From Escherichia phage Henu8: a stretch of 49,890 bases of DNA. The translations under genes were made by a program, and so were the position numbers. Shown here piece by piece: positions 19,468-24,399 of this stretch (within the stretch, counting starts at the first letter, position 1; every line of letters begins with the position of its first letter). The notes below the pieces were generated by a model. The model did no database searches. It was not told the origin of the DNA and was given only the letters and a program-made list of their open reading frames with translations. The stretch is taken from sequence record NC_049853.1, one strand, 5' to 3'.

Positions 19468-19903
19468 AAACTACACGATAAGGGAATTTCACGGCAACAT
19501 TGATGCGTGGATAAACGCCGTTGATAATGGACTAAAAGATTGCGTGGAATTGTTCGCCGAAAAAGTACACACAGATTTGGTTAAGCGTTCTCCGGTAGAT
19601 ACTGGTCGTTACCGTGCAAACTGGCAGGTAACAGCAAACAAGCCGCCATTGTATGCGCTTAACCAGTACGATAAGCACGGCGACAAAACGATCGCGGAAG
19701 GCAAGCGCGCCATATACGCAATATTACGAGGTGGCGGAGCAGTAAGAGCCATTTATTTTTCCAACATGCTTATTTATGCTAACGCGCTTGAGTACGGTCA
19801 TTCAAAACAAGCGCCAGCGGGTGTGCTTGGGATTGTAGCTGTTAAGTTGAGATCTTATATGGCTGAAGCAATAAAAGAGTCGAGGGCTAAAAATGCACTA
19901 TGA
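19460..19903 (+). CDS. neck / tail completion protein
   Basis: 147 aa; overlaps neighbours; by position. Confidence 0.4.
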   Translation: MAKNYTIREFHGNIDAWINAVDNGLKDCVELFAEKVHTDLVKRSPVDTGRYRANWQVTANKPPLYALNQYDKHGDKTIAEGKRAIYAILRGGGAVRAIYFSNMLIYANALEYGHSKQAPAGVLGIVAVKLRSYMAEAIKESRAKNAL

Positions 19904-20291
19904 ATTAATGCTATCGGCGCGTAAGGCGCTGGCGACTGAATACGAAAGCAGATTCATGATCGCTTATGAAAACGTAGAGTTTACGCCACCTGGTGACGGT
20001 TCGCCGTGGTTGAAGTTTGACTATACCGAAGTTGACACAGAATACTTGTCATTGGATCGCAAATGCGTTTCTTATATCGGAATGATTCAGGTTGGTATTG
20101 TGTTTCCACCAGGTTACGGAACTGACAGGCCGCGTGTTCTAGCTAAAGAGATTGCGCAATTCTTTTACGATGGTAAAATGTTGGAGCACGGTTATATATA
20201 TGAGGGTGCAAGAGTTCACAAACCGCTCAAGAGTGAAAGCGGATGGCTTCTCCCTATAAGGTTTTATGTTCGAATTGAAAAAAAGGAGTAA
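19893..20291 (+). CDS. tail terminator / completion protein
   Basis: 132 aa; immediately upstream of the major tail gene. Confidence 0.4.
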   Translation: MHYELMLSARKALATEYESRFMIAYENVEFTPPGDGSPWLKFDYTEVDTEYLSLDRKCVSYIGMIQVGIVFPPGYGTDRPRVLAKEIAQFFYDGKMLEHGYIYEGARVHKPLKSESGWLLPIRFYVRIEKKE

Positions 20292-20296
20292 AAATT

Positions 20297-20959
20297 ATGC
20301 ATTTACCAAATGGATCGCAAATTTTCGTTGAGAGCAATCGCGGAAGCGAAATCCAAGCAACAGCAGTGTCAAACGCTAAAGATCCTGTATTCACCGTTGC
20401 ATCTGGCGGCACTGCGTACAAGAAAGGTGATTATGTTATCATCACTGCGTCTTCTTGGGGTAAGCTAATTGATCGCGTTATGCGTGTAAAGAATAACGGT
20501 GAAGAAACGAGCGTGACTCTTGAAGGTGTAGATACTACTGATCAGAACGTTTTCCCGTCTGGCGGTACTGCATCTTTTGCCAAAATTGATGCATGGACTG
20601 AGATCCCTTGCGTTCAGGACTTGTCGCAGGACGGCGGCGAACAGCAATACTACACTTATCAGTGTTTGGCAGACGATCAGGAACAGCAGTTACCTACCTA
20701 TAAGAGCGCCGTTTCTCTTACCTACACTTTTGCGCACGAATACGATAACGCGATCTATCCGTTACTTCGTGCAGCAGATGAATCCGGCGCTGTGACGGCG
20801 CTTCGTATGTATGTACCAAAAGCAAAAGAGATGCGTTGCTGGGCTGGTGTACTTTCGTTTAACGAAATCCCGCAGACCACAGTTAACGAAATGGAAACTG
20901 TTTCCCTGTCTGTATCCCTGAAAGGTCGATTCACCTTCCTACCTTCTCAAGTAGCATAA
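20297..20959 (+). CDS. major tail protein
   Basis: 220 aa; AAGGAG SD; followed by a strong terminator and then the chaperone and tape-measure genes. Confidence 0.6.
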   Translation: MHLPNGSQIFVESNRGSEIQATAVSNAKDPVFTVASGGTAYKKGDYVIITASSWGKLIDRVMRVKNNGEETSVTLEGVDTTDQNVFPSGGTASFAKIDAWTEIPCVQDLSQDGGEQQYYTYQCLADDQEQQLPTYKSAVSLTYTFAHEYDNAIYPLLRAADESGAVTALRMYVPKAKEMRCWAGVLSFNEIPQTTVNEMETVSLSVSLKGRFTFLPSQVA

Positions 20960-20965
20960 TCACAA

Positions 20966-20990
20966 GGGGCGTTGCGCCCCTTTTTTTGTT
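20966..20990 (+). terminator. rho-independent terminator after major tail gene
   Basis: GGGGCG-TTG-CGCCCC hairpin followed by T7. Confidence 0.65.
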
Positions 20991-21058
20991 ACTGTACAAT
21001 CAAGCTACACGATTCATAATCAATTCTTTTAACAAAAAGTGCTATCAAGGGGAAAGAA

Positions 21059-21376
21059 ATGTCAAAAATGAAATTGACGATTGGGCCGCTTCCTGACTTT
21101 AAATTACCAGTGAAATTTGCAATGCCTAACGGAGAAGATCAAACAATTATCTTCACAGTTCGCCACCGCAAAACAAGTGAGATTCACGAGCGCTACACGT
21201 CAGATACTCCAATGAGCGATGTTGAAATGATCACCTTCCTTGCTTCCGGTTGGAATCTTGATGATGAATTTAACGAAGAAAATATTAAACAGCTTCTTGA
21301 TTACTACCCAGCGACAGCAATCGGATTAACTAGCGCATACATGAAAGCGCTTGCGGGGCAGCGAGTAAAAAACTAA
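21059..21376 (+). CDS. tail assembly chaperone (G-like)
   Basis: 105 aa, immediately upstream of the tape-measure gene; ends in slippery heptamer A AAA AAC. Confidence 0.65.
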   Translation: MSKMKLTIGPLPDFKLPVKFAMPNGEDQTIIFTVRHRKTSEIHERYTSDTPMSDVEMITFLASGWNLDDEFNEENIKQLLDYYPATAIGLTSAYMKALAGQRVKN

Positions 21377-21687
21377 AAAGGGCGGTTTACCTGTTTTATC
21401 AGAAACCGCCGACAGATGCAGAGCTTGAGGCCGTTGGCCTTACAAGGGCAGACTATGAAGGGGAAGATCCGCCAGAGGTTATATTTGATGAAAGCATGAT
21501 GCAATCATGGGATATATTTTGCGCAATGCAAACGCAATGGAGATGTTCTGGCGGTGGCGCTTACGGGTTTGATTATAATGTCTTGCCTATGCTTTTTGAG
21601 ATTTACAAGGTTGAGGATCGCGAGATGGCGCTAAACGACTTGCGAATCATGGAGCAAAAAGCACTTGAAATGATGCATTCAAAATAA
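21059..21687 (+). CDS. tail assembly chaperone frameshift product (GT-like), -1 slip at 21367-21373
   Basis: A_AAA_AAC in zero-frame register just before stop; the -1 frame stays open from 21373 to 21687 with no independent start signal. Confidence 0.55.
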
Positions 21688-21710
21688 GCGCCTACGGGCG
21701 CTTTTTTATT
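21686..21710 (+). terminator. rho-independent terminator-like hairpin
   Basis: AAGCGCC-TACG-GGCGCTT followed by TTTTTATT. Confidence 0.5.
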
Positions 21711-21726
21711 ACCTGGAGGATTAATA

Positions 21727-24399
21727 ATGTCAGAACAATACGCAGGCTTGACGCTTGGGGTTGATGTTTCTCAACTCAACAATGCTGTAAAGTCTTTGCA
21801 GCAATTCAAGAAGGCAAACGACGACGCAAAGGGAAGCGTTGAGAGTTTTGTTGATTCAGAGGTTGTTGCAAGACAAAGAGCCAAACAACTGGCTGAGGAA
21901 TTGGCAAAGCAGAAGCAAGAATTTAAAGCAATTCAGTCGGCAATAGATCCGACAGCAAGCAAAATGGATAAGTTGCGCCAGGCAGCAACACAGCTTGATG
22001 CGCTTTGGAAAAAAGGAATTGTGCCGGATGATACATTCTTTGAGTTAGGATCAATTCTTGAGACGCAGCAAAACAAACTGATCGCAACTAAAAAGGCGCT
22101 AACTGAAGAAGGCCGCGCGGCGCTTGAGGAAGCAAAAAACAAGGCAAGGGCAGAGGCTGAGGCAAGAAAGTTTATTGCGGCATTGCAGGCGCAAGCTGAC
22201 GCAGCGGAAAAAACAAAATCAGAGCTTGTCGAAATGAGAGCCGCACAACTTGGAGTTAGTGCAGAGGCAGCGCCATTTATTGCAAAAATGAAGGAGCAGG
22301 AAAAACAAGCCTCAAAACTTGGCGTTTCTATGGGGCAGTACAAGCAAGCAATGGCGCAATTGCCAATGCAGATCACTGACGTTGTTACTTCTCTTGCTTC
22401 AGGTATGCCAGTATGGATGATCGCAATCCAGCAGGGTGGGCAAATCAAGGACTCATTCGGCGGTGTTGCTAATACGTTTAAAGCGCTAATGACATTTGTC
22501 ACGCCTTTAAGTGTAGGAATGACGGCGCTGACTGGTGCTCTTGGTTATGCTGCATATAATGCATACAAAGCAAATGCACAATTGAAGGAGATCACAAAAA
22601 CCGTTCAGGAGGCAACTGGTCTTTCCGGTGATTTTGCGGAGCGGATTGCAACTGGAATCCAGGCGCTATCTGACAAGACATGTGAGAGCGCCGACAATCT
22701 GGCAAAGGCATACATAAGCACTAAGGATGGAGCAACCGAGGCAATACAAAAACTCGTCGATGTTGGATTTACCTATGACGAAGCAAAGGCAAAAGTAAAC
22801 GAATACAAAAACGCATCAAGTTTTGTAAGTCTTAACAATGAAATTGCTGATCACAAAAACAAGGTTCTTGAGCTTGGCGATTCATGGTATGCGGTCTTAA
22901 AAGCAAAACGTGATTATGCTTCACCGTCCGGTGGTCTGTTGGGGAAAGAGCTTGGTTATGTGAATCCAATGCTGCAATTTGCGAAGAACACCTATGAGGA
23001 TATAGGAAAGATCGTAAAAGATGCGAATAAGGATATGGCGGAACGAGCAGCACGCATCGACAGAGAAAACCTTTCCTTAAACAGAGTTCGAGCGGCGCAA
23101 GAGGCTTTAAATAAAGCCATAGAGGATCAGAAGAACGTAGCAAGGACAGCAGACGAAGAATTGAAAAAGCGCGCGGCTGAGAACGTGGAGTTCAGGCGAA
23201 AAGAGCTTGAGGAGGCGAAGAAGGCGCAGCAGCAAAAGGAGAAAGTTGGTGGAGTTGTAAAAGCACCAACAGAGCATCTTGATAAGGAGCTATATGTTCT
23301 CAAGGCGCAACTTGAAACGCTGAAAGAGCACCGAACTGTAAATGATGTTATTTCACGCCAGAGGCAATCTTTGTGGAGCATTGAAAAGCAGATCCAGATC
23401 CTTGAGGAAGCGCAAAGTAAACGCAAGCTGACAAAAGCGGAACAGGCGTTACTAAACGAGCAAAAAGCAGTTATTGCTATGGCAAAAGAAAAGGCAGAGA
23501 TAGGCGATCAGATTGTTTTGCAACAGAGAAAGAACAAGCAATACCAGGAAGGGCTTAAATTCATTCAGCAAACATCAGATGCTATTGACGCTATGAACTT
23601 GCGACAGTCTGGAGCTACAGATCTGCAAATCCAGCGAGAGCTTGAGTTGAAGAAGTTGCGAACTGATTATGTTGCTGGCGGCGGTAGTATCGACGATGAA
23701 ATTTATCAGCAGATGGAAGCAAAGCTGAAGGAGTATTACGCCACTGAGGATCAGCTTAGAAATAACTGGATTGCAGGAGCAAAAAACGCATGGGAGGTTT
23801 ACGGACAAGATGCAATGGATATGTACGGCAACGTGCAAGATATTGCAAGCGAGGCGCTCAACGGTCTAACCAACCAAATGGCTACATTCCTTGCAACAGG
23901 AAAGGCAAACTTTAAGAGCTTCGCAACGTCAATCATCCAAATGATTATCCAGATGATCACGAAGATGGTTATCTTTAATGCCATATCTGGTGCGATTGGA
24001 GGTGACACTTGGACGATTGGAAGCCTTCTTAAAAATGTTGGATTTGCAACTGGTGGATACACTGGCGACGGCGGGAAGTATGAGCCAGCAGGTGTTGTCC
24101 ATAAAGGCGAGTTTGTCATGACAAAGGAGGCCACGAAGCGGATCGGAGTTGGAAATCTTTACAAAATGATGCGCGGTTATGCAAATGGCGGCGTTGTTGG
24201 CGGCACTTCATACACTGGCGGCGGAGTTTCATCTGGAGCAACAAATCTTAATATTGGCGGGATCAGCGTTGATATTAACAACGGAAGCGATCCGAAAGGG
24301 TTGGAGACTGGCGTAAAAATGATTTTCACTGATATGATTAAGCGTTCCTGTACGCAGGGTGGGGAAGTTTACGAATTTGTTATGTCTAAGCGGGGGTGA
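21727..24399 (+). CDS. tail tape measure protein
   Basis: 890 aa, Ala/Gln/Lys/Glu-rich coiled-coil sequence, hydrophobic segment, Gly-rich C-terminus; follows G/GT. Confidence 0.85.

What the first reader, a model, noticed from the sequence alone, without database searches (positions are those of the whole stretch)
21361..21687. Programmed -1 frameshift in the tail assembly chaperone (G/GT-like)
The chaperone ORF ends ...GTA AAA AAC TAA with the slippery heptamer A_AAA_AAC (21367-21373) in the X_XXY_YYZ register. The -1 frame is open from there to 21687 (about 105 extra codons) and has no independent start signal. A GT-like fusion upstream of the tape-measure gene is a conserved feature of long-tailed phages.
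Basis: partly seen in the sequence, partly recalled or inferred. Interest (0 to 1): 0.4.

Follow-up and report, generated by a model that had tools for sequence, protein, structure and literature searches.

The report
Tail chaperone G/GT -1 frameshift site
This is the ordinary programmed -1 ribosomal frameshift that lets a T1-like phage make a short and a long form of its tail assembly chaperone; it is real and strongly conserved, but already recognised in sister phages, so it is a gap in annotation and not a discovery.

Summary
The window is a T1-like siphovirus (Drexlerviridae, Hanrivervirus; 99.8% identical to Shigella phage pSf-1 here). The ORF 21059-21376 (Pfam Phage_TAC_4) ends GTA AAA AAC TAA, with A_AAA_AAC in the X_XXY_YYZ register at 21367-21373. 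The -1 frame stays open to 21687 and encodes a DUF1799 domain. It has no ATG/GTG/TTG before 21496.

Comparative evidence is decisive:
- All 61 non-Webervirus loci among 80 viral-contig relatives (down to 42% T identity) keep AAAAAAC followed directly by a stop.
- Pseudomonas and Ralstonia phage relatives have G_GGA_AAC plus a stop at the same place.
- The 41 codons before the first ATG evolve as coding sequence in the -1 frame (for example 14 synonymous against 1 non-synonymous change).

A hairpin 7 nt downstream (-15.1 kcal/mol) is a plausible stimulator, but covariation does not support it.

The same frameshift is already annotated as a joined CDS in phages TLS and Sushi and mentioned in papers on T1-like phages. 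It is not annotated in pSf-1, T1 RefSeq and other Hanrivervirus records.

One correction: tandem slippage predicts the junction ...QRVKN-LKRAV, not ...VKK-LKRAV.

The finding is already known and of low interest.

The parts
21059..21376 (+). G-like tail assembly (tape measure) chaperone ORF, 105 aa, zero frame
   Evidence: ORF list. Pfam Phage_TAC_4 at E 1.8e-31, 109.3 bits against a cut-off of 21.1. Matches positions 1-107 of phrog_17368.
21367..21373 (+). Slippery heptamer A_AAA_AAC in the X_XXY_YYZ register
   Evidence: Read directly from the sequence. It is the only canonical heptamer in the overlap. It is conserved in all 61 non-Webervirus loci of 80 relatives. It is replaced by G_GGA_AAC in Pseudomonas and Ralstonia phage relatives.
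21374..21376 (+). Zero-frame stop codon TAA directly 3' of the heptamer (possible 'shifty stop')
   Evidence: A stop (TAA or TGA) abuts the heptamer in every relative that carries a canonical X_XXA_AAC heptamer, except Serratia phage ZDD2, where it lies 9 nt later. In the Webervirus clade, which has no canonical heptamer, one codon separates the A_AAA run from the TAA.
21373..21687 (+). T segment, -1 frame: 104 codons plus stop. The GT product is join(21059..21373, 21373..21684), 209 aa
   Evidence: Translation. Pfam DUF1799 at E 6.8e-13, starting at residue 22 of the segment, well upstream of the first ATG. Matches positions 109-211 of phrog_17368. Substitutions are biased to third codon positions.
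21381..21410 (+). Predicted RNA hairpin 7 nt after the heptamer: GGCGGUUU pairs with AAACCGCC, plus an inner CUG/CAG. Putative frameshift stimulator
   Evidence: MFE -15.1 kcal/mol, z = -3.74 against dinucleotide shuffles. z = -2.84 against synonymous-codon resampling. It persists in a 121-nt fold. There is no covariation, 0 double-sided changes. It is absent in some clades.
20964..20990 (+). Terminator-like hairpin plus T-run between the tube protein gene and G (context)
   Evidence: The homologous site is annotated as a terminator in T1, G29-2 and Sushi.
21686..21711 (+). Terminator-like hairpin plus T-run between T and the tape measure gene (context)
   Evidence: The homologous site is annotated as a terminator in T1, G29-2 and Sushi.
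20297..20959 (+). Major tail (tube) protein gene, upstream neighbour
   Evidence: Pfam Phage_tail_3 at E 3.4e-64.
21727..24399 (+). Tape measure protein gene, downstream neighbour
   Evidence: Pfam TMP_2 and Tape_meas_lam_C.

Best explanation
A programmed -1 ribosomal frameshift gives two forms of the tail assembly (tape measure) chaperone of a T1-like siphovirus.

Most ribosomes translate 21059-21376 and stop at TAA, making the 105-aa G-like protein. A small fraction slip back one base on A_AAA_AAC (21367-21373) and continue in the -1 frame to 21687. This makes a 209-aa GT-like fusion whose C-terminal 104 residues form a DUF1799 domain.

Steps shown here:
- the architecture;
- the slippery site in register;
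- the absence of any start codon for the T part;
- family-wide conservation of the site;
- protein-coding selection on the -1 frame from the first codon after the heptamer.

Steps inferred:
- The shift is ribosomal tandem slippage.
- It is inefficient, because this heptamer is weak in E. coli.
- The adjacent stop codon and the hairpin 7 nt downstream raise or tune its rate.
- By analogy with lambda gpG/gpGT, G and the G part of GT coat the tape measure protein, while the T domain recruits the tube protein, and neither ends up in the virion.
For: Architecture and domains:
- Gene order is tube protein, G, T, tape measure.
- G is Phage_TAC_4 and T is DUF1799.
- One PHROG profile (phrog_17368, 213 positions) spans both halves, so fused products exist among annotated phage proteins.

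No independent start:
- No ATG/GTG/TTG occurs in the -1 frame between 21334 and 21496, yet the DUF1799 match starts at T residue 22.
- The first possible start codon in the T frame sits at different places in different relatives: codons 4, 7, 17, 19, 22, 35, 41 or 42 after the shift site, and upstream of it in the Webervirus clade and one other locus. No start position is conserved.

Conservation of the site:
- AAAAAAC plus a stop is present in all 61 non-Webervirus loci of 80 relatives, down to 42% T identity.
- It is also present in the G-based relatives down to 41% identity, in T1 itself (L042), in TLS and in a Dhillonvirus.
- Pseudomonas phage YMC11/02/R656 and Ralstonia phage YO104_1 have G_GGA_AAC plus TGA at the same position. 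The three X bases change together, so slipperiness is preserved.

Coding signature:
- In the first 41 T-frame codons, differences from relatives fall by codon position as [3,1,15] for L018, which is 14 synonymous and 1 non-synonymous codon change. All relatives at 83-92% T identity show the same pattern.
- Arg108 switches among AGG, CGG and CGC.

Protein library:
- Nearly all of the 150 best representatives of 1.84 billion proteins are G-only or T-only.

Prior recognition:
- Joined CDSs are annotated in TLS (tfmS) and Sushi.
- The Stevie paper (PMC4319613) and the U136B paper (PMC8104045) mention the frameshift.

Literature on the mechanism:
- Lambda makes G and GT at 30:1 and the roles of the two products are described (PMC5009743).
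Against: - There is no direct protein evidence for this phage or, as far as I found, for any T1-like phage. Nothing here measures the frameshift rate.
- A_AAA_AAC is a poor shifter in E. coli.
- The hairpin has no covariation support and is missing in some clades.
- The Webervirus clade lacks a canonical heptamer and reads GCA AAA GTY TAA, so the exact signal is not universal.
- Several relatives have a start codon 4-7 codons into the T frame, and phage G29-2 has an ATG 3 nt after the G stop. Some independent T synthesis in those phages cannot be excluded.
- The public records closest to the window annotate two separate ORFs.
Confidence: 0.9

Rival explanations
1. T is a separate small gene translated on its own. 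It would be either the 63-aa ORF from ATG 21496, as annotated in pSf-1, JLBYU09 and T1, or a product that starts at a non-canonical codon just after the G stop by termination-reinitiation.
For: Public records annotate it this way. G29-2 has an ATG 3 nt after the G stop, which its annotators used. Many T-only representatives begin about 8 codons into the T frame. An AAGGG stretch lies upstream of CTG 21391.
Against: The window has no ATG/GTG/TTG before 21496. The DUF1799 domain begins at T residue 22, so it would be truncated. The 41 codons upstream of 21496 are under purifying selection in the -1 frame from the very first codon, LKRAVYL. The position of the first possible start is not conserved among relatives. 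No Shine-Dalgarno sequence precedes ATG 21496. The slippery heptamer would have no reason to be conserved, or to change to G_GGA_AAC.
Confidence: 0.04
2. The frame change happens at the RNA level. RNA polymerase stutters on the A6 run and inserts one extra A, and normal translation of the edited mRNA gives the fusion with junction ...VKK-LKRAV.
For: A homopolymeric A6 run is present. Transcriptional slippage is used by some bacterial and IS genes (PMC5009743, title and text).
Against: Known bacterial cases use longer runs, roughly 9 or more (my own knowledge of that literature). Homologous sites in relatives have only A3 (G_GGA_AAC) or A4 (GCAAAAG) yet keep the ORF arrangement. The C at heptamer position 7 is invariant and the stop abuts nearly every canonical heptamer, which only a ribosomal mechanism explains.
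Confidence: 0.04
3. It is an artefact or a decaying gene. A single G-T gene would have been split by a sequencing error or by a real mutation in the homopolymer.
For: Homopolymer runs are error-prone. One record, Shigella phage 2019SD1, does differ by one A here. One 206-aa single-ORF G-T fusion, P0018, exists in the protein library.
Against: The same split, with the same heptamer and stop, is present in more than 80 independent genomes and metagenomic contigs from several genera and hosts.
Confidence: 0.01

Closest known systems
Phage TLS tfmA/tfmS tape measure chaperones (AY308796), and the equivalent joined CDSs in Klebsiella phage Sushi, Citrobacter phage Stevie and E. coli phage U136B
   Same: Same virus family (Drexlerviridae). 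The G and T parts are homologous (62% identity over the 209-aa GT query for TLS). TLS has the identical GTA AAA AAC TAA site with the same downstream GGGCGGTTT. The frameshift product is already annotated as a two-piece CDS and is mentioned in print.
   Different: The window's own genus (pSf-1, JLBYU09, damhaus, G29-2) and T1 RefSeq do not annotate the join. Sushi and its Webervirus clade use GCA AAA GTY TAA, not the heptamer.
Bacteriophage lambda gpG/gpGT (Levin, Hendrix & Casjens 1993; Xu, Hendrix & Duda 2004, 2013, 2014)
   Same: Same genomic position between the tube and tape measure genes. It also has a -1 shift near the end of G and a T part with no start of its own. A low GT:G ratio (1:30 in lambda) is needed for tail assembly (PMC5009743).
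   Different: There is no detectable sequence relation. The Pfam scan finds Phage_TAC_4 and DUF1799, and not lambda's own G and T families. Lambda's heptamer is G_GGA_AAG, which is efficient in E. coli. From my memory of the lambda sequence, lambda's G stop lies about 20 nt after its slip site, whereas here the stop abuts the heptamer.
IS1 insA/insAB' frameshift at A_AAA_AAC
   Same: Same heptamer, used in E. coli for a low-level -1 shift that makes a fusion protein. It is a proven case with no established stimulator (PMC4066793).
   Different: The proteins and their biology are unrelated (a transposase against a virion assembly chaperone).
E. coli dnaX -1 frameshift (A_AAA_AAG with upstream SD and downstream hairpin)
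   Same: A -1 shift on an A-rich heptamer, with a stem-loop a few nucleotides downstream.
   Different: The last base is C, not G, so the site is much less shifty. The upstream GGGG is not conserved among relatives (GCTGGT, GCAGGT, GCCGGA), so there is no evidence for an SD-like stimulator. The shifted product here is longer than the zero-frame product, not shorter.

Membership tests
G/GT-type tail assembly chaperone frameshift of long-tailed phages (Xu, Hendrix & Duda 2004) | Two overlapping ORFs lie between the major tail (tube) gene and the tape measure gene | tested here: met
   Tube gene 20297-20959, G 21059-21376, T frame to 21687, tape measure 21727-24399.
G/GT-type tail assembly chaperone frameshift of long-tailed phages (Xu, Hendrix & Duda 2004) | A slippery sequence in the correct register lies inside the overlap of the two frames | tested here: met
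   A_AAA_AAC at 21367-21373 is the only X_XXY_YYZ heptamer in the 13-codon overlap.
G/GT-type tail assembly chaperone frameshift of long-tailed phages (Xu, Hendrix & Duda 2004) | The downstream ORF lacks its own translation start | tested here: met
   The first ATG/GTG/TTG is at codon 42 (21496). No SD precedes it. The domain starts at residue 22.
G/GT-type tail assembly chaperone frameshift of long-tailed phages (Xu, Hendrix & Duda 2004) | The arrangement is conserved in related phages, and the second frame is under coding selection | tested here: met
   for the site. for the third-position bias (14 synonymous against 1 non-synonymous change in the first 41 codons, compared with L018).
G/GT-type tail assembly chaperone frameshift of long-tailed phages (Xu, Hendrix & Duda 2004) | A fusion protein is made at a low, fixed ratio, is required for tail assembly and is absent from virions | not testable with these tools
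   This needs expression, mass spectrometry and genetics. Only the lambda data are in the literature I read.
Pfam Phage_TAC_4 (PF08748) and DUF1799 (PF08809) | Score above the curated gathering threshold | tested here: met
   109.3 bits against 21.1 for G, and 49.1 bits against 26 for T.
Lambda gpG and gpT sequence families | Detectable sequence homology to lambda G and T | tested here: not met
   The Pfam scan at E <= 0.1 lists no other tail chaperone or lambda T family. No PDB relative was found. The resemblance is functional and syntenic only.
Stimulated -1 PRF of the dnaX / IS911 type | A conserved downstream RNA structure 5-9 nt from the heptamer, supported by covariation | tested here: inconclusive
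   The hairpin lies 7 nt downstream, at -15.1 kcal/mol, z -3.74 and -2.84. 89% of cells are paired in the clade, but there are 0 compensatory changes. It is absent in L018, L039, L051, L072 and L073.
Stimulated -1 PRF of the dnaX / IS911 type | A conserved upstream Shine-Dalgarno-like element | tested here: not met
   The upstream GCGGGG varies among relatives as GCTGGT, GCAGGT and GCCGGA.
Transcriptional slippage (programmed polymerase stuttering) | A long homopolymer run conserved as a run | tested here: not met
   The run is only A6 here, and A3 or A4 at the homologous site in Pseudomonas and Ralstonia phages and in Webervirus.

The most novel reading that the evidence does not exclude
The signal may be more than the heptamer. 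It may be the composite X_XXA_AAC plus an abutting stop codon, conserved from coliphages to Pseudomonas and Ralstonia phages. This points to a 'shifty stop' mechanism. The ribosome would pause with the stop codon in the A site, and the E/P-site tRNAs (Lys or Gly, and Asn) would slip back one base, so that termination efficiency sets the G:GT ratio. The clade-specific hairpin would be an add-on. This would be a distinct and so far undescribed subtype of tail-chaperone recoding signal. It would also explain why a heptamer that is weak in bacteria is so strictly kept.
Probability: 0.3. Interest if true: 0.3.

Novelty: already known. Interest (0 to 1): 0.12.

Why it matters
The practical value is in curation. 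The closest public records (pSf-1, T1 RefSeq, JLBYU09, damhaus and others) annotate a truncated 55- or 63-aa 'gene', or no T gene at all. RefSeq and PHROG label both chaperone parts 'tail length tape measure protein'. A joined CDS, join(21059..21373, 21373..21687), would give the correct 209-aa product. This matters for structural modelling of tail assembly, and for studies in which tail assembly chaperones trigger bacterial immune sensors that recognise the part shared by both isoforms (bioRxiv 10.64898/2026.01.04.697583). Biologically, this is one more instance of a textbook recoding event.

Tried and rejected
- **Structure prediction.** AlphaFold2 of the 209-aa GT with a 4-sequence alignment gave mean pLDDT 46.8. 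That is too poor for a fold search, so none was run.
- **Word-indexed homologue search.** It returned only 3 proteins, all T-frame ORFs. They were of no use for a deeper alignment.
- **PDB sequence search.** No relative was found.
- **Rfam scan of 20900-21800.** It gave only sub-threshold hits on the two terminator hairpins and nothing at the frameshift site.
- **Covariation test of the hairpin.** There were no compensatory pairs. In every pair I checked by hand, one partner sits at a first or second codon position of a conserved residue, so this test cannot decide the matter.
- **Upstream SD-like stimulator.** Rejected, because the sequence is not conserved.
- **Heptamer enrichment.** AAAAAAC is not over-represented in the window.
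- **Second candidate frameshift.** The in-phase A_AAA_AAG at 20279-20285 was rejected as functional because relatives lack it.

Full report
**What the window is.** The region 20900-21800 is 99.8% identical to Shigella phage pSf-1 and 96-99% identical to about 35 other Hanrivervirus records (Drexlerviridae, Tempevirinae). Some 600 further T1-like phages match at 60-80%. The local gene order is:
- major tail/tube protein, 20297-20959, Pfam Phage_tail_3;
- a 105-aa ORF, 21059-21376;
- an open -1 frame running to 21687;
- the tape measure protein, 21727-24399, Pfam TMP_2 and Tape_meas_lam_C;
- lambda-like M, L, K, I and J homologues.

**Checking the observation.** The sequence reads ...CAG CGA GTA AAA AAC TAA....
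- The heptamer A_AAA_AAC occupies 21367-21373 in the X_XXY_YYZ register, and the stop occupies 21374-21376.
- The -1 frame is open from 21334 to the stop at 21685-21687. The overlap is therefore 13 codons and the extension is 104 codons.
- A_AAA_AAC is the only canonical heptamer in the overlap.
- The first ATG, GTG or TTG in the -1 frame is at 21496, codon 42. No Shine-Dalgarno sequence precedes it.

The heptamer alone is not remarkable. AAAAAAC occurs 20 times in the window against 22.4 expected. In-phase X_XXY_YYZ heptamers occur about once per 330 codons (41 in 13,725).

**What the two parts are.** The zero-frame ORF is a Phage_TAC_4 tail assembly chaperone (E 1.8e-31). The -1 segment is a DUF1799 domain (E 6.8e-13) whose match starts at residue 22 of the segment. 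That is 20 codons upstream of the first ATG, so the 63-aa ORF annotated in several records would be a truncated domain. A single PHROG profile (phrog_17368, 213 positions) matches the G part at positions 1-107 and the T part at 109-211. Fused products are therefore already present among annotated phage proteins.

**Comparative test of the site.**
- Relatives found with the G protein keep AAAAAAC directly followed by a stop down to 41% G identity. The single exception is the 2019SD1 contig (L006) discussed under "Things seen in passing".
- An alignment of T segments retrieved 80 viral contigs. All 61 non-Webervirus loci, down to 42% T identity, have AAAAAAC followed directly by TAA or TGA. This set includes phage T1 itself (L042, a 48,836-bp contig).
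- The 19 Webervirus-like contigs instead have GCA AAA GTY/GCC TAA.
- A Dhillonvirus has A_AAA_AAC TAA.
- Pseudomonas phage YMC11/02/R656 and Ralstonia phage YO104_1 have G_GGA_AAC TGA at the homologous place.
- Serratia phage ZDD2 has A_AAA_AAC 9 nt before its stop.

The change from AAA to GGG in the first three positions keeps the X_XX rule. This is the kind of co-ordinated change expected only if slipperiness itself is under selection.

**Comparative test of the frame.** I looked at the 41 T-frame codons that would be non-coding if T began at ATG 21496.
- Differences from relatives at 83-92% T identity fall overwhelmingly on third codon positions. For L018 they are [3,1,15] by codon position, which is 14 synonymous and 1 non-synonymous codon change. 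For L034 the counts are 20 and 4.
- The first residues after the shift, LKRAVYL, are conserved, while the Arg codon switches among AGG, CGG and CGC.
- The first possible start codon in the T frame lies at codon 4, 7, 17, 19, 22, 35, 41 or 42 in different relatives. In the Webervirus clade and one other locus it lies upstream of the shift site. No initiation site is conserved.
- In a search of 1.84 billion representative proteins, nearly all of the best 150 hits are G-only (about 105 aa) or T-only (65-140 aa). A single 206-aa one-ORF fusion, P0018, also appears.

**Likely mechanism.** The best-supported reading is ribosomal -1 slippage on A_AAA_AAC.
- With tandem slippage, the A-site tRNA is Asn, so the junction is ...QRVKN-LKRAVYLF.
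[quoted passage not shown] IS1-family elements use them where a low level of fusion protein is wanted (PMC4066793; PMC5009743).
- That fits a chaperone system in which the long form must be rare. In lambda the G:GT ratio is 30:1.

**Two candidate modulators.**
- The first is the zero-frame stop that abuts the heptamer in nearly all relatives carrying a canonical heptamer. From general knowledge of 'shifty stops' (Weiss et al. 1987; Horsfield et al. 1995, cited from memory), a stop in the A site can promote slippage of the tRNAs behind it. This is inference.
- The second is a hairpin at 21381-21410, 7 nt after the heptamer.
  - Its MFE is -15.1 kcal/mol, with z = -3.74 against dinucleotide shuffles and z = -2.84 against synonymous-codon resampling that keeps the T protein. 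It persists in a 121-nt fold.
  - Comparable or stronger excess stability is seen in most Tempevirinae and T1 representatives (z -2.5 to -5.6).
  - Other clades form different stems that start at the same distance, for example GGGCTG/CAGCCT in Webervirus.
  - Several clades have nothing (L018, L039, L051, L072, L073).
  - Within the clade where it aligns, there are no compensatory changes.
  - I therefore call the hairpin plausible, not shown.
- An upstream SD-like stimulator is not supported, because the upstream GCGGGG is not conserved.

**Rivals.**
- Independent translation of T is contradicted by the missing start codon, the truncated domain, coding selection from the first codon, and the conserved heptamer.
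- Transcriptional slippage is unlikely as the main route. The run is only A6, and homologous sites have A3 or A4.
- A sequencing artefact is excluded by more than 80 independent genomes.

**What is already known.**
- The homologous frameshift is annotated as a two-piece CDS in phage TLS (tfmS, with the identical GTA AAA AAC TAA site).
- It is also annotated as a joined CDS in Klebsiella phage Sushi.
- The genome paper on phage U136B describes a manually annotated slippery sequence (PMC8104045).
- The general phenomenon is that of Xu, Hendrix & Duda 2004, as cited.
- It is not annotated in pSf-1, JLBYU09, damhaus or T1 RefSeq. These list a 55- or 63-aa ORF or nothing. In G29-2 an AGG-to-ATG change 3 nt after the G stop led the annotators to call a 102-aa ORF.

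**Dead ends.** These were a low-confidence AlphaFold model (pLDDT 46.8), no PDB relative, no Rfam family at the site, and a word-indexed protein search that returned only three T-frame ORFs.

**Things seen in passing.**
- An in-phase A_AAA_AAG lies at 20279-20285, at the end of the tail-terminator-like ORF 19893-20291. Its -1 frame runs straight into the tube protein gene. Relatives lack it and it overlaps the tube gene's AAGGAG ribosome-binding site, so it looks incidental.
- Terminator-like hairpins bracket the G/T pair.
- The record of Shigella phage 2019SD1 has A5 where the window has A6, T4 where it has T5, and a deletion of about 110 nt joining T to the tape measure start. These are probably assembly errors.

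**Verdict.** Interest is low. Its main value is to correct the annotation.

Noticed in passing
window 20279-20285 (ORF 19893-20291, next gene 20297-20959): An in-phase A_AAA_AAG, the most shift-prone E. coli heptamer, sits two codons before the stop of the tail-terminator-like ORF. Its -1 frame opens exactly there and runs via G-V-K-I into the ATG of the major tail protein, so a slip would fuse the two proteins. The run overlaps the tube gene's AAGGAG ribosome-binding site. Relatives outside the genus lack it, so it is probably incidental.
   Followed up: partly
window 20964-20990 and 21686-21711: Terminator-like GC hairpins with T-runs bracket the G/T pair, one after the tube gene and one before the tape measure gene. 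The homologous sites are annotated as rho-independent terminators in T1, G29-2 and Sushi. This suggests stepwise attenuation of transcription from the abundant tube protein to the chaperones and the tape measure protein.
   Followed up: partly
L098 / L006 (Shigella phage 2019SD1, NC_049820) against window 21340-21730: This record has A5 where the window has A6 at the slippery site, T4 where it has T5 further on, and a deletion of about 110 nt that joins the T frame to the start of the tape measure gene. The homopolymer differences suggest sequencing or assembly errors. If real, the phage would lack a normal GT.
   Followed up: partly
L002 1980-1982 (phage vB_EcoS_G29-2), equivalent to window 21379-21381: A single AGG-to-ATG substitution creates an ATG 3 nt after the G stop in the T frame (Arg to Met). 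The annotators used it to call a 102-aa stand-alone ORF. The slippery site is unchanged.
   Followed up: yes
L053-L071, L015 (Webervirus / Klebsiella phages): This clade has no canonical heptamer. The site reads GCA AAA GTY (or GCC) TAA, so only an A_AAA tetramer is available for a -1 slip, yet the G/T arrangement and a downstream GGGCTG/CAGCCT stem are kept. Sushi's annotators still joined the CDS.
   Followed up: partly
RefSeq records NC_021331, NC_005833, NC_0498xx; phrog_569, phrog_680, phrog_17368: The chaperone ORFs G and T are labelled 'tail length tape measure protein' in RefSeq and in the PHROG descriptions. This mislabel appears to propagate from the PHROG annotation.
   Followed up: no
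P0018 (206 aa, metagenomic representative): This is a single-ORF protein that covers both the G and T parts (31% identity, query 5-206). It lacks the last 10 or so residues of G, including the slip-site codons. It could be a natural in-frame fusion or an indel artefact. Its contig could not be fetched with the tools allowed.
   Followed up: partly
window against OK272487 (Escherichia phage JLBYU09): The G, T and tape measure genes have exactly the same coordinates in JLBYU09 as in the window (21059-21376, 21496-21687, 21727-24399) at 99.0% identity. The window therefore seems to be a near-complete genome that starts at the same point as that record.
   Followed up: no
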